In this document: in pieces, positions 31,302-44,955 of the stretch
How the letters are laid out: every line of letters starts with the position of its first letter
Numbering within the stretch: the stretch's first letter is position 1
Assembly: GCA_951406725.2 (NCBI GenBank)
Contig: OX597822.1
Coordinates: 75,950,001-76,014,000, forward strand
Direction of reading: 5' to 3'
DNA: 64,000 nucleotides
DNA from: Octopus vulgaris
Taxonomy: Eukaryota
Notes under the pieces: generated by a model
Database searches by the model: none
What the model was told of the DNA's origin: nothing
What the model saw: only the letters and a program-made list of their open reading frames with translations
Position numbers and translations under genes: made by a program

Positions 31302-31651
31302 TTAAAATCAAAGTAAAGATTTGTGACACTACATCGACATCTAGATGAAAATTAAACTTTCTAAGTTTTACCCTCAATGCTAATAGGCAGGATCACGATT
31401 CTATTGACATCTTTATACCGATTCAAGTGTGAACTTCAGAAAATCACATTTCAAATCCGTAAAATAATCTTCCACTTCTACGATTTCATTTTTCTTCACT
31501 CTCTAGCTGGCTATACGGCACGATCTGTGTCCTTATATTTTCAAACAAGGGTATCAAGCGCCCCCACTCAGCTTAAAACAATAGCTATGTATCGCTATTT
31601 CTGGGTTATTTCCCTTCATCAGCACAGAATAATTGTTCGGCTAGAGATTAC

Positions 31652-31734
31652 CCTATTTTATTTTTAAGTAGCTAACGCTTGTCCTATTTTATTTTTAAGT
31701 AGCTAACACCTGTCCTATTTTATTTTTAAGTAGC
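31652..31734 (+). repeat. 31-bp tandem repeat, about 2.7 copies
   Basis: CCTATTTTATTTTTAAGTAGCT occurs three times. Confidence 0.9.
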
Positions 31735-32459
31735 TCTGAGATGGTATAACTGACCGGATTGTTTGTGAATTCGCCTCCAACTGAATGCAAAATGTTTCTC
31801 CAAGGAGCAAGACTCACAAAATCTTGTCAAAAACATATCGTAACGTTTTAGAGAAAAAAATATGCGGTAGATTAGTCCACTGTTCAAGGAACTAATTCAC
31901 ATCATTAAACTTAACACAAGATTGCACAACTCTTGTGAACTCTTGTAGTTTACAGAAAAAATGTATATTTTACATCACTGATAAAACAAATAACTTAAAA
32001 GGCACACGTCTTTGGAGTTGAATGAAAACTTGATCATGATAATTGCATTACGTTCGGTACTGATCTTTTCAGAAGTCTCTTTCAAGTCTACTAATTTGTC
32101 ATTACAACGACAGGAAGACTTTTTGATTTTCTTCTTGTTTTCATTAATAGGGAAATAAAAAGTTGTATGATTTTGGCAAAGTTTCTTGTTTGAGATTATG
32201 TTTTGGTGAAGGTGAAACTACTGCAGCGAGTTAGTATCGTGATGTTCATTAAAACAGACACGCATTATATACGATTAAGAATCAAAATATTTTGTTAATA
32301 TCTCTAAACTAGTGTTTCTCAACCGGAGTCCATATGGCTCTTAGGCGTCCATATAAGATTTAGTAGCTAACAATTATACGCATTGAATCTTTTATACTTC
32401 TACGATACACAAAGTTTTTTAACAATTTTTTTGTACAAATCCTAATAATATTAAAAACA

Positions 32460-38285: not shown

Positions 38286-39613
38286 TCTTCTCCTCTTTAT
38301 AATTTCTATCTTCTGTTCACGAATGACCGACCTATTCACTCAATCAATACAAAATCTATTTCTTTCTCTCCATTTCTAATCTCTTTCAATTTTTCTTCCT
38401 CTGCCACACGTTCTCCTCTGCTCTTCCTTTCCTCTTTCAATCGTCCATTATCCCTCTCTCCTCCCCAACCACTTTGCCCCGATTTCTCTCTGTCCTCCTC
38501 TTCCTACCTCTCTCTCTCCCCCTTCTCTCTTTCACTGCCTTATAAACTCTTCGTTTCTCCCTCTATTATTGTTTGTCATTTAGTCTCTATTCTTTTTCCT
38601 CTCTTTTTGCAACAGTTACATCAGCGTCTCTCTTTCTTCTTTCATTTTATCTTTCTTTTTCGGCATTTCTCAATATGTCGTTCGTTAAACTTCACGTACA
38701 TCTACTCATTTGCTAGCAGTTTCTTCTTTCCTCCACCTCTCCCTCTTACTTTCCCCCCTCTCTCTCTCTTCCTTTCTTTCTTTTCTCTCTATCTCCCACT
38801 CTCTCTGTTATTCATCCATTCAAGTGTTATATAATCAAGCGCAACTTTTGTATTCGTTCTCTCTCAACCTCTCTTCTTGCTTTCCAACCCAAACAATTTT
38901 CATTTCTTCTACTTCTCACGCCCGCCCTTAATCTCATCACCACCTCCATTTCCTTGTAGAGCACTATCATTAGATCATTAATCTTCGTGTCAATTAGCTA
39001 TTTATTAATAACACATGTGAGTGCTTGTTAGGGACATTGTCCGTAAACCTACAATTATTAAACACCATGATTCTCCCGCCAGCAGCAATGGCGCAGCCAC
39101 AGCAATATGACAAAAACAGTCCGACCTGATAACCCTCAATTATATTTGTATGTATGTTCCCTCTTTCTATTAATTTTTAGTTTATATTTCATTGGCCACC
39201 TTCCTCGTGGCAAGGATGTAAAGGAAAGGAAATTGCCATCGTTTCTTATGTAACTATTCATCCTTTGAATCGTAAGAACGTTTTACAAACATTGTAAGTT
39301 CCAAATATGGCGGCCATTTCTAGTTTATGAATTTAGGAGTTCTATTTTCTTTCTCCAAAATTCTCTGTTCAATTACACCTTAGTTCAAGCGGGTTGATAT
39401 ATAACTTGTTGCTCTTATAATAACGTGTATGAAACTGAACGTGTATCTTCGATACTATGTCTGCAAATTTCTCTAATGAGAAGTTTGCAGACCATTGATA
39501 ATGTCTGTAGACATCCTCCTTCTCTTAATATTTCTTATCTCATTGATATCAAGTGGAGAGCTGATTTGTACGAAAGAGCATGCTTTTAATCCTTGGTCCA
39601 TGACAACAATATA

Positions 39614-40222
39614 AGGCGGCGAGCTGGCAGAAACGTTAGCACGCTGAGCGAAATGCGTAGCCGTATTTCGTCTGCCGTTACGTTCTGAGTTCAAATTCCG
39701 CCGAGGTCGACTTTGCCTTTCATCCTTTCGGGGTCGATAAATTAAGTACCAGTTACGCACTGGGGTCGATGTAATCGACTTAATCCATTTGTCTGTCCTT
39801 GTTTGTCCCTTTTGTGTAGTAAAGAAATGGGTATTCCGTCTGTCTTTATGTTCTGAGTTCAAACTCCGCCGAGGTCGACTTTGCCTTTCATCCTTTCGCG
39901 GTCGATAAATTAAGTACCAGTTGAGTACTGGGGTCGATCTCATCTACTGGCCCCCTCCCCAAAAATTTCGGGCCTTGTGTAGAAAAGAATATATATCTCT
40001 TTAAAATTCGGTGAACTAGCAGAATCGTTAGCACGCCGGGCGAAATGTTTAGCGGTATTTCGTCTGTCTTTATGCTTTGAGTTCAAATTCCGCCGAGGTC
40101 GACTTTGCCTTTCATCCTTTAGGGGTCGATAAATTAATTACCAGTTGTGTACTGGGGTTGATCTAATCGACTAGCCTCCCTCCCCCAAAATTTCGGTCTT
40201 TGTGCCTATCGTAGAAAAGAAT
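39614..40222 (+). mobile_element. SINE family B dimer plus an adjacent monomer
   Basis: Head GGCGGCGAGCTGGCAGAAACGTTAGC; core repeated at ~39685, ~39852 and ~40078. Confidence 0.9.
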
Positions 40223-41196
40223 ATAAAGCCGGTGTTGTTTTAATTTGGTGGTAGATTTATTGTTAGGTTTCAGTATTATTTTGAGCCACCTGTCTCAACA
40301 TATTCTTCCCAATTTGTATGTATGTATGTATGTATGTATGTGTTTGTGAGTATGTCTTTTTTTAATTCAAATTCTTCCTACGCAGGAATTTGGATATCAT
40401 CAACAGTAAGTATTAAATGTTGAACTTCAGAAATGTCTTGCACCTTTCAATGCTCCACTTATTGACTATATTTGTAAAGTAAATGTTAGCCGGTCTCTTT
40501 CTTTTATATGAAAATCCCTGATTGCTGATATCAACATCTAAACATTTGCTAATAATGTCAAGGGCACCAATAATGCGGAATTATATTCCGAGAAGAGAAT
40601 CTATAGGTTTCGAAGCAGTCGGCTATAAATATTCTGCTTCTCGCTGAATGTGAAAGAAATATATTCATATCTGTAGAGCAGCTGACCTCTGTATTCCTTC
40701 ATGATTTTTCTTGTCTGTCACAAACTGCAATATAAGTTTTTTTTATATTTCCGATAGGTGAGAATTTTGACGTGAATGTTCCACAAATATTTCTGTTGTT
40801 TATTAAAAAAAAAGGTATTATTAATATTTGCCTTCCGACTGATAAAACTGCATATTGTTTAAGAACAATGAGAGCGAGAATTTCAATGACATTTTCGAGT
40901 AACAGCTACTGTTACGTGAATATCTTCTGAAGTCATATAGCATAATAGACATTTTTCTGAAGCATCATTAGGGTTTAAGTTTTCACTGTTTTTCTTGCTT
41001 GTTAGATATTTCGAATTTACCTCCTGCTCTTGGATTGCAAAAGTGATGTAATGCAACGTTCACTAGCACGGGAGACTCCATACTTTAACTCAATGCAAAC
41101 AAGGAAAATATGCCAAACATTCATATCGATACACTGATAAATTTCATTCCTTGAAAAACGCTACTAATTCAAGTCTGGTAAACAAACTACCGTATT

Positions 41197-43328: not shown

Positions 43329-43343
43329 GGGAGAGAGAGAGAG

Positions 43344-43565
43344 AGAGTAGTTGTGTACTGTCAACTTAATATGACAGTCCCATGAAGGGAATAACACTAC
43401 ATCTATTTAGCCCTAGGAAGCAGCAACGCTACCTGTCGGCCTTGACACATTTCCTGTGTCCTTATGTTTACAAGGGGGAGATAAGCACCTCCACCCAGCT
43501 AAGCCTGCATCCAGAGATTCCCTACATGGGACTGTCACATTAAGTTGACTGTATACAACTACTCT
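43344..43565. mobile_element. 222-bp element with ~47-bp terminal inverted repeats; relative of 56063-56361
   Basis: AGAGTAGTTGTGTACTGTCAACTTAATATGACAGTCCCATGAAGGGA ... TCCCTACATGGGACTGTCACATTAAGTTGACTGTATACAACTACTCT. Confidence 0.85.
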
Positions 43566-44237
43566 ATCGTACCACTACTGCTTATATATCTCTCAGATAT
43601 TTAGAAATGTAATATTTTCATTTATATATATATATATATATATAATTATTAATTATATATATATGTATATGTGTATATATGTATATGCATATGTATATGT
43701 TTATATGTGTATTCATATATGTATATGTCACTGAGTTTGTTTTTCCCCAACCCAACCCCATCCATCACCCCAACCGATGTTGGTTTGCTTACGTCCTCGT
43801 AACTTGAGAGTTAGGGAACAGTAAACTATAGAATAAGTACAAAACTAAAAGGAAAAAAATATAAGTACCGGAGTCGATTTGCGCGGCTAAAACCTTCAAG
43901 GCGGTACCCCAGCATGGTCGCAATCCAGTGACTGAAACGAGTAAAAGATAGAATATCAAAGATAACCAGTAGCTGTGACTTTACAATGGACTATCCAAAA
44001 GTATGTATAAAATACCGAAGGGAGACAACTGTAGGTAAACTATAGGCTCTTTATCACAAACTACGATCGTATGATCAACCATACTCGCTAACAACGATGC
44101 TCTTTATCACAAACTACGAGCAGGATGGCGAAAACCAAGACATCGTACTAAATTACAGGAGCGTCCGTGTATCAGTCTTAAGTTTACATTAAGCCCACAG
44201 GCGATATATTGCAGCATTAAAGGTCATTTATCAAGGG

Positions 44238-44955
44238 AACAGTTAATCAGATCGACCCCAGTACGCAACTGGTACTTAATTTATAAACCCCGAAAGGATG
44301 AAAGGCGAAGTCGACCTGGGTGGGATTTGAACTCAGAACGTAAACACAGACGAATTACTTCTAAGCATTTCGCCCGGTGTGCTAACGTTTCTTATTTCTT
44401 TACTGCCCACAAGGGGCTACACACAGAGGGGTCAAACAAGGACAGACAAACGGATTGAGTCAATTATATCGACCACAGTGCTTTACTAGTACTTATTTAA
44501 TCGACCCCGAAGGGATGAAAGGCAAAGTCGACCTCGGCGGAATTTGAACTCAGAACGTAGCGACAGACGAAATACCTATTTCTTTACTACCCACAAGGGG
44601 CTAAACACAGAAGGGACAAACAAGGACAGACAAACGGATTAAGTCGATTATAACGACCCCAGTGCGTAACTGGTACTTAATTTATCGACCCCGAAAGGAT
44701 GACAGGCAAAGTCGACCTCGGCGGAATTTGAACTCAGAACATAAAGACAGACGAAATACCGCTAAGCATTTCGTCCGGCCTGCTAACGTTTCTGCCTGCT
44801 CGCTACCTTTCCGAATGTATATACTCTTTTCTACTCAAAGCACAAGGTCCGAAATGTTTTAGTGGAAGGGCCAAGTCAATCAGGTTGACCTCAGCACGCA
44901 ACTGGTACTTAATTTATCGACTCCGAAAGGATTACTAACAATTCTGACAGCTCAC
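44238..44955 (-). mobile_element. SINE family B head-to-tail trimer plus an adjacent copy
   Basis: CCCCGAAAGGATGA core at ~44288, ~44506 and ~44688. Confidence 0.9.

What the first reader, a model, noticed from the sequence alone, without database searches (positions are those of the whole stretch)
43344..43565. Diverged sister element preserves hairpins by compensatory change
Seen: the same layout as 56063-56361 (long IRs; shared TTTAGCCC.AGGA, CCTTATG, CAA.GGG, TAAGCCT) with divergent sequence. The IR hairpin GCCA-tctcaata-TGGC becomes GTCA-acttaata-TGAC. The internal GGCACA-ctatc-TGTGCC (56161-56177) becomes GACACA-tttcc-TGTGTC (43444-43460). GGAGA/TCTCC is replaced by an AGG.AGC/GCTACCT stem at the same position. 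The hammerhead segment is absent from this copy. Inference: selection on single-stranded structure across subfamilies, pointing to a structured RNA (or ssDNA) family with ribozyme-plus and ribozyme-deleted members.
Basis: partly seen in the sequence, partly recalled or inferred. Interest (0 to 1): 0.7.

Follow-up and report, generated by a model that had tools for sequence, protein, structure and literature searches.

The report
Cut-short Penelope-like retroelement end, ribozyme-flush
This 260-base repeat is likely a cut-short, back-folded end of a Penelope-like jumping gene whose relatives carry a hammerhead ribozyme motif; this copy stops within two bases of the predicted self-cutting site, which would be a footprint of the ribozyme acting during transposition if a genome-wide count shows it recurs.

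Summary
43344-43565 (A) and 56063-56361 (B) are homologous (local score 51; best of 2000 shuffles 37), and 6 of 20 hairpin pairs change on both sides with pairing kept. The 'ribozyme-deleted subfamily' reading does not hold. In four sequencing runs, 95, 102, 67 and 7 contigs leave A at 43517 and run on into a canonical type I hammerhead on the minus strand. Other copies join their two arms at many different places, so the inverted repeats are not fixed ends. [quoted passage not shown] No RT/GIY-YIG gene could be linked, so membership rests on anatomy. Of interest: motifs sit in the same register from the cut site in A and B (+49/+50, +102/+102, +144/+144, end +172/+171), and A's long arm ends at the predicted cut (2-base ambiguity; one copy only).

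The parts
43344..43515 (-). A, long arm: 172 bases from the predicted hammerhead cut to the short 3' end (sense = minus strand, inferred from hammerhead orientation)
   Evidence: high-copy in all 4 runs laid (2205, 2372, 2186, 303 contigs)
43516..43565 (+). A, inverted short arm: second, more truncated copy of the same 3' end, head to head with the long arm
   Evidence: 90% identity to left arm; other copies have arms of 33-123 bases
43566..43603 (+). A, tail: extension present on one arm only
   Evidence: 26 of 38 identical to B 56363-56400 in the arm's own register, 0 of 20000 shuffles reach it; multi-copy depth, and found on the other end in 3 contigs of X15
43515..43517 (-). Junction of the two arms, coinciding with the predicted hammerhead cut (43516|43515); GA at 43516-43517 fits either arm
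   Evidence: loose ends behind 43517; register with B's cut; 43393 reads C in 70% of X1 depth
43357..43378 (.). End hairpin H0 (7-pair palindrome, 8-base loop), repeated in the right arm
   Evidence: 3 of 6 inner pairs changed on both sides against B, 0 broken
43415..43434 (.). Hairpin H1
   Evidence: 2 two-sided changes against B; all 6 loop positions vary, stem does not; a further variant swaps G-C for A-T (20 contigs, X6)
43444..43460 (.). Hairpin H2
   Evidence: 1 two-sided change against B, 5 pairs same
56063..56314 (-). B, long arm: sister family copy that runs past the hammerhead
56228..56272 (-). B, type I hammerhead motif with U3-A8 core, 5-pair helix II, palindromic helix III loop; predicted cut 56234|56233
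   Evidence: pattern scans; no Rfam hammerhead hit
56315..56404 (+). B, inverted short arm (56315-56361) and tail (56362-56404)
56049..56061 (+). B, left copy of a candidate 13-base target-site duplication (right copy 56405-56417, 12 of 13 identical)
   Evidence: 17 of 1025 random sites give as good a match
31498..31627 (-). C, decayed third family member: core plus CUGAUGA-type hammerhead, no end hairpin, no inverted arm
   Evidence: found by a profile built from A and B only, E 2.3e-6; hammerhead scan

Best explanation
The element is likely a 5'-truncated insertion of the hammerhead-bearing terminal repeat (pLTR) of a Penelope-like retrotransposon, made of two copies of the same 3' end joined head to head, and it lacks the hammerhead because it stops where longer copies of its family run on into one. 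Shown: the hammerhead motif in longer copies, copy-specific junctions, the one-sided tail, the shared hairpins and their constant spacing. Inferred from published work on a lizard PLE: the element's RT/endonuclease protein binds the folded RNA downstream of the hammerhead, nicks both strands of AT-rich DNA and starts cDNA on both strands at two fixed sites near the end hairpin (short end, tail end); the two cDNAs stop at different lengths and are joined, giving the inverted repeat. The hairpins would be kept by selection on the active master elements, not on these dead copies. That A's long cDNA ran off the 5' end of a ribozyme-cut RNA is possible (about 0.4) but rests on one junction.
For: Hammerhead continuation behind 43517 in 95, 102, 67 and 7 contigs of 4 of 4 runs, the largest loose-end row shown in each run. 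Same motif at the same distance from the core in B and C (+49, +50, about +52 to CATAAGG), all with short palindromic helix III, one with the U3-A8 core, both described for PLE hammerheads (PMC4209133). 10 of 20 listed joints are inversion junctions, with long-arm ends from 43453 to 43507 and short arms of 33-123 bases. Tail 38-43 bases on one arm, homologous between families, on the other end in some copies; 30-40-base one-sided tail and inverted 5'-truncated copy are PLE hallmarks (PMC8557442; PMC3846280). Candidate 13-base TSD at B. Both-strand priming from one stem-loop, and tail equal to the stretch between two start sites, shown in vitro (PMC11167929).
Against: No RT or GIY-YIG sequence could be tied to the family: 0 such hits among 145 of 380 window frames scanned, and the region upstream of C gave nothing. 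No TSD at A. B's TSD has a 1.7% background. 0 of the 10 other visible junctions end at the cut site. No tandem (pLTR-forming) arrangement was seen. G-U evidence for which strand folds is mixed. Rfam does not call any of these hammerheads.
Confidence: 0.82

Rival explanations
1. A miniature inverted-repeat DNA transposon (MITE) with fixed terminal inverted repeats that has captured structured sequence; the palindromes in the arms would be transposase binding sites.
For: About 50-base inverted repeats, short length, high copy number; 7 of 10 other short arms are 33-49 bases, close to A (50) and B (47).
Against: Junctions differ from copy to copy and arms reach 123 bases; one arm carries a 38-base tail; many copies continue into a hammerhead instead of a right arm.
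Confidence: 0.04
2. A dedicated non-autonomous short retroelement (SINE-like or retrozyme-like, pLTR-derived) that is transcribed as a small RNA starting at the hammerhead cut and is mobilised in trans by a PLE protein, not a fragment of an autonomous element. Same mechanism of insertion, different template.
For: Very high summed depth over the 170-base core and fall-off towards the hammerhead; A starts flush with the cut; no ORF found upstream of C; pLTR-derived non-autonomous elements are described (10.64898/2026.07.22.740005; PMC8557442).
Against: Most visible junctions lie well short of the cut (0 of 10 at it); some contigs run 116-481 bases beyond 43517 (records 9, 24, 31); no tandem units seen; minimal hammerheads are reported for PLEs rather than retrozymes (PMC7229834).
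Confidence: 0.1
3. A host structured RNA family with ribozyme-plus and ribozyme-deleted members, each copy under selection.
For: Two-sided changes in three hairpins; stems less variable than loops.
Against: The window copies carry private pair-breaking changes (43431, 43550), C is decayed, arms and junctions vary, and the family is a high-copy interspersed repeat.
Confidence: 0.03
4. A non-autonomous DIRS-like (tyrosine recombinase) retroelement with inverted terminal repeats; the palindromes with an 8-base spacer would be recombinase sites.
For: Palindrome with asymmetric 8-base spacer in each arm; one arm longer than the other.
Against: No internal complementary region seen; variable junctions; candidate TSD at B, whereas DIRS lack TSDs (PMC8969392); hammerhead type matches PLEs.
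Confidence: 0.01

Closest known systems
Endonuclease-bearing Penelope-like elements with hammerhead pLTRs (Penelope/Poseidon, Neptune, Nematis, Hydra clades)
   Same: Minimal type I hammerhead with palindromic helix III (one with U3-A8), 5' truncation, inverted truncated second copy with both 3' ends outward, 30-40-base tail on one end, long TSD, AT-rich or microsatellite targets.
   Different: No ORF linked here, clade not assigned; the three-hairpin domain between cut and end, with spacing kept to within 1-3 bases across families about 35-40% diverged, was not found described in the passages read.
Poseidon element of Anolis carolinensis (PAc), in vitro system of PMC11167929
   Same: Hammerhead upstream of an end stem-loop; two 3' ends separated by a tail; both-strand priming predicts the inverted arms seen.
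   Different: In PAc the ORF starts inside the hammerhead and RT starts about 85-90 bases after the cut; here the short end is 171-172 bases after the cut and no ORF opens in that stretch. PAc work found no reads ending at the cut, whereas A ends there.
Animal non-LTR retrozymes
   Same: Short, non-coding, type I hammerhead, likely moved by PLE proteins.
   Different: Retrozymes are head-to-tail tandem units of 150-450 bases; A and B are head-to-head single insertions with a tail.
MITEs
   Same: Short, inverted repeats at the ends, many copies.
   Different: Arms and junctions vary between copies; tail; hammerhead.

Membership tests
Penelope-like elements (EN+) | RT of the PLE clade plus GIY-YIG endonuclease in the autonomous element | tested here: inconclusive
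   No hit in window frames or upstream of C; longer copies exist in the runs but their letters beyond 30 bases are not given; no genome held.
Penelope-like elements (EN+) | Minimal type I hammerhead with palindromic helix III in the terminal repeat | tested here: met
   A family by loose ends, B and C in the window; by pattern and by eye, not by Rfam; activity untested.
Penelope-like elements (EN+) | Variable 5' truncation with an inverted truncated copy, 3' ends outward | tested here: met
   10 distinct inversion junctions among 20 listed joints; A and B themselves.
Penelope-like elements (EN+) | 30-40-base tail on one end only | tested here: met
   38-43 bases, 26 of 38 identical between A and B; on the opposite end in 3 contigs.
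Penelope-like elements (EN+) | Variable-length TSD or microsatellite target | tested here: inconclusive
   13-base candidate at B (1.7% background), none at A, which lies between TA/GA microsatellites.
Penelope-like elements (EN+) | Partial tandem forming direct pLTRs | not testable with these tools
   Not seen in the three window copies; needs long copies from an assembly.
MITE / DNA transposon | Fixed terminal inverted repeats and fixed internal structure | tested here: not met
   Arms 33-123 bases, staggered junctions, one-sided tail.
Non-LTR retrozyme | Head-to-tail tandem units each with a hammerhead | tested here: not met
   0 of 3 window copies are tandem; not excluded elsewhere in the genome.
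Non-LTR retrozyme | Abundant circular RNA | not testable with these tools
   Only contigs were served; no run on record as RNA.

The most novel reading that the evidence does not exclude
Hammerhead-cut RNA is a real template for PLE insertion in vivo: the ribozyme releases a 170-215-base RNA whose three hairpins form a fixed-length docking domain (a ruler from cut to the two RT start sites) for the telomerase-like RT, and copies like A, flush with the cut, pile up genome-wide. That would give the PLE hammerhead a demonstrated role and define a telomerase-RNA-like structured domain conserved across PLE families.
Probability: 0.25. Interest if true: 0.68.

Novelty: new member of a known kind. 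Interest (0 to 1): 0.4.

Why it matters
As a repeat it is ordinary: a PLE end that automatic annotation could mistake for a MITE. Two details bear on an open question. The role of the PLE hammerhead is stated to be unclear (PMC8557442, passage), and in the one in vitro system cleavage was not needed and no reads ended at the cut (PMC11167929). A high-copy family whose junctions can be counted makes the question testable from an assembly alone. The constant register and two-sided hairpin changes also mark out a candidate protein-binding RNA domain for mutational tests.

Tried and rejected
No whole genome is held. Rfam: only U6 at gathering level in the window; two chance hits around B. Core pattern in viral and metagenome contigs: 1 and 27 loci, none with hairpins, arms or a profile match better than E 0.39, so all 28 were dropped as chance. 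A 23-base core stretch: 0 hits in viral and prokaryote genome contigs. An impression that 31700-32450 is a decayed PLE ORF: not supported (Pfam on 3 frames; phmmer on 1 frame, 0 hits; word search on another frame, 0 of 203 candidates; the third frame was not searched beyond Pfam). Pfam on the 145 longest of 380 frames: no RT or GIY-YIG. Expression: no RNA holder listed; X15 is only guessed to be RNA and contigs give no strand, so it is not used as evidence. One search compared tails, arms and H0 one base out of register (9 of 38); one search corrected this from alignment A3 and shows the signal only at offset 0. The automatic alignment misplaced H1, so H1 pairs were counted by coordinates. Whole-element folding z-scores only reflect the inverted arms and were not used. 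Joints at 43394/43517 and 43403/43516 look like junctions at the cut but are explained by left-arm reads laid on the right arm; rejected as support. Lunse et al. on PLE hammerhead dimers was not held.

Full report
Setting. The window is AT-rich (GC 0.34), full of microsatellites and interspersed repeats, with a U6 snRNA match at 1239-1344: an animal genome. Its look recalls octopus DNA; that is recall, not a tool result, and nothing below depends on it. No assembly is held, so family evidence comes from three window copies and one lay of public contigs.

Observation. A (43344-43515) and B (56063-56232) align with local score 51; 0 of 2000 dinucleotide shuffles (max 37) and 0 of 3102 other window stretches (max 36) reach it. 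A third copy, C, at about 31498-31627 is found by a profile built from A and B only (E 2.3e-6). Counting the 20 pairs of the three hairpins by coordinates: 6 change on both sides and stay paired (3 in the end hairpin H0, 2 in H1, 1 in H2), 10 are the same, 1 changes on one side to T-G, 2 outermost pairs are open in B, and 1 is open in A only (43431, where over 99% of depth in all four runs has the pairing base). RNAalifold on the two sense strands recovers H0 and H2 with these changes but misaligns H1. Within the A family, positions that vary in at least 4% of depth fall on 1 of 40 stem and 8 of 19 loop positions (Fisher p 2.5e-4). Rows dropped before that count: four near-fixed differences private to the window copy (43401, 43402, 43431, 43550) and the rows at 43560-43569; two rows were not shown by the tool. 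Positions are not independent and the hairpins were chosen because they look like hairpins, so this is support, not a formal covariation test. One more two-sided change (G-C to A-T in H1) appears in a variant seen in 20 contigs of run X6.

The missing hammerhead. Contigs of four runs (three coded organisms, four studies) were laid on 43340-43600 at 80% likeness: 2205, 2372, 2186 and 303 contigs, so A is a high-copy repeat (summed depth is no copy number). In each run the largest loose-end row shown lies behind 43517 (95, 102, 67, 7 contigs; 24 rows shown, 510 not). Read on the minus strand, its consensus has a CUGAUGA box, a 4-pair helix II, GAAA and a palindromic CUAG before UC, followed by the window's own 43515 downward: a minimal type I hammerhead whose predicted cut falls at 43516|43515. 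B has the same motif with a U3-A8 core (cut 56234|56233) and C a decayed CUGAUGA one. Counted from the cut, A and B are in register: CATAAGG +49/+50, GGGCTAAA +102/+102, end-hairpin loop +144/+144, short end +172/+171; C gives about +52 for the first motif (read by eye). So B places A's cut at the same spot independently of the reads. A is not a ribozyme-deleted subfamily but a copy that stops there.

The inverted repeats are not fixed ends. One search lists 20 distinct joints (15 in table 5, 5 more in 5c; 3 not shown). I class 10 as inversion junctions, 5 as left-arm reads laid on the right arm, 2 as internal deletions or replacements and 3 as ambiguous (left out). In the 10, the long arm ends at 43453, 43456, 43461, 43462, 43468, 43473 (twice), 43481, 43482 and 43507, and the inverted arm is 33 to 123 bases long (7 of 10 are 33-49).

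Tail and target duplication. Beyond the right arm, A 43566-43603 and B 56363-56400 are 26 of 38 identical without gaps, in the arm's own register; 0 of 20000 shuffles reach that, neighbouring offsets give 5-14, and the next 38 bases give 14. Depth stays far above single-copy level to 43600, and 3 contigs of X15 carry the same tail (21 of 22 bases) on the other end. B is flanked by a 13-base repeat with one mismatch (56049-56061, 56405-56417) right after a 43-base tail; 17 of 1025 random sites do as well; A has none and lies among TA/GA microsatellites.

Comparison with what is known. Cervera and de la Pena 2014 (PMC4209133; parts 1-2 of 4 read) describe minimal type I hammerheads with palindromic helix III, a U3-A8 variant, and many single motifs from truncated PLEs. 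Craig et al. 2021 (PMC8557442; passages), Arkhipova et al. 2013 (PMC3846280; passages), Schostak et al. 2008 (PMC2377424; passages) and Goubert et al. 2022 (PMC8969392; passages) describe heavy 5' truncation, an inverted truncated copy giving inverted repeats of variable size, a 30-40-base tail at one end, and TSDs of 8-10 bases. Frangieh et al. 2024 (PMC11167929; parts 1-2 of 4) show that a PLE protein nicks and extends both strands from the same RNA stem-loop downstream of the hammerhead, that the tail is the stretch between two start sites, that hammerhead cleavage was not needed in vitro, and that no RNA-seq reads ended at the cut. Retrozymes are tandem (PMC7229834, passages) and likely PLE-derived (bioRxiv 10.64898/2026.07.22.740005, part 1 of 5 and passages). 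A review (PMC6765202, passages) gives the dimer model. Octopus vulgaris has annotated Penelope families (PMC13282606, passages; 'hammerhead' 0 occurrences), relevant only if the recalled host is right. A and B match this anatomy on hammerhead, truncation, inversion and tail. The defining RT plus GIY-YIG gene could not be linked, so 'works like a PLE end' is well supported and membership is by anatomy; the clade is not assigned. The family may already stand in Repbase or in supplementary libraries, which I did not see.

Mechanism, step by step. Shown: sequence anatomy, spacing, paired changes, variable junctions. Inferred from the Anolis system: protein binding to the hairpin domain, two-strand nicking, cDNA starts at the short end and the tail end, head-to-head joining of two truncated cDNAs. 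Selection on structure would act on active masters; individual copies decay (private changes at 43431 and 43550; C lost its 3' end). Which strand folds is open: the hammerhead fixes minus as sense, G-U evidence is mixed, and H0 could also act as a DNA palindrome.

The junction at the cut. A's junction can lie after 43515, 43516 or 43517, because GA fits both arms (43393 reads C in 70% of X1 depth). A uniform stop along 170 bases would hit these three places about 2% of the time (my estimate, after the fact). The tool is partly blind to this class: the shortest skip listed is 54 bases, and copies built like A make no joint. I put it at about 0.4 for this copy. Eight paper searches showed no title or abstract reporting PLE insertions flush with the cut or this three-hairpin domain; the library lacks most subscription journals.

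Verdict. Real, homologous, structure-conserving; best read as truncated inverted ends of a hammerhead-bearing PLE family (0.82). New member of a known kind; interest 0.4, mostly for the testable cut-flush junction and the fixed-register hairpin domain.

Noticed in passing
window 15785-16200: Two hammerhead motifs of another family in opposite orientation about 280 bases apart (+ strand at 16132, decayed partner on - strand at 15853) inside a nest of inverted and direct repeats (15655-16327): likely a second PLE-type insertion.
   Followed up: partly
window 5800-5875: A further type I hammerhead-like motif on the + strand (core at 5813, 5-pair helix II with long loop, near-palindromic helix III), downstream of a mariner remnant.
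   Followed up: no
window 43577-43596 and 56374-56393: The conserved part of both tails is a pyrimidine-rich run ending in CAG, preceded by a branch-point-like word: it looks like a 3' splice site, which would fit the 5' intron known in some PLEs. Inferred from sequence only.
   Followed up: no
window 1239-1344: U6 snRNA match, 107.9 bits, full length.
   Followed up: no
window 4966-5385: Mos1-type transposase HTH remnant (PF17906, E 2e-6).
   Followed up: no
window 31655-31745: Three tandem 30-base units directly upstream (sense) of C's hammerhead.
   Followed up: no
window 39613-40225, 44240-44932, 59913-60604: SINE-like repeat present as partial tandem arrays of 170-220-base units, with many single copies elsewhere in the window; no hammerhead in them.
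   Followed up: partly
joint 43387-43448: The same internally deleted copy with a 28-base replacement appears in runs of two coded organisms (X1, X6), as does the 43422/43481 inversion junction: likely orthologous insertions older than their split.
   Followed up: no
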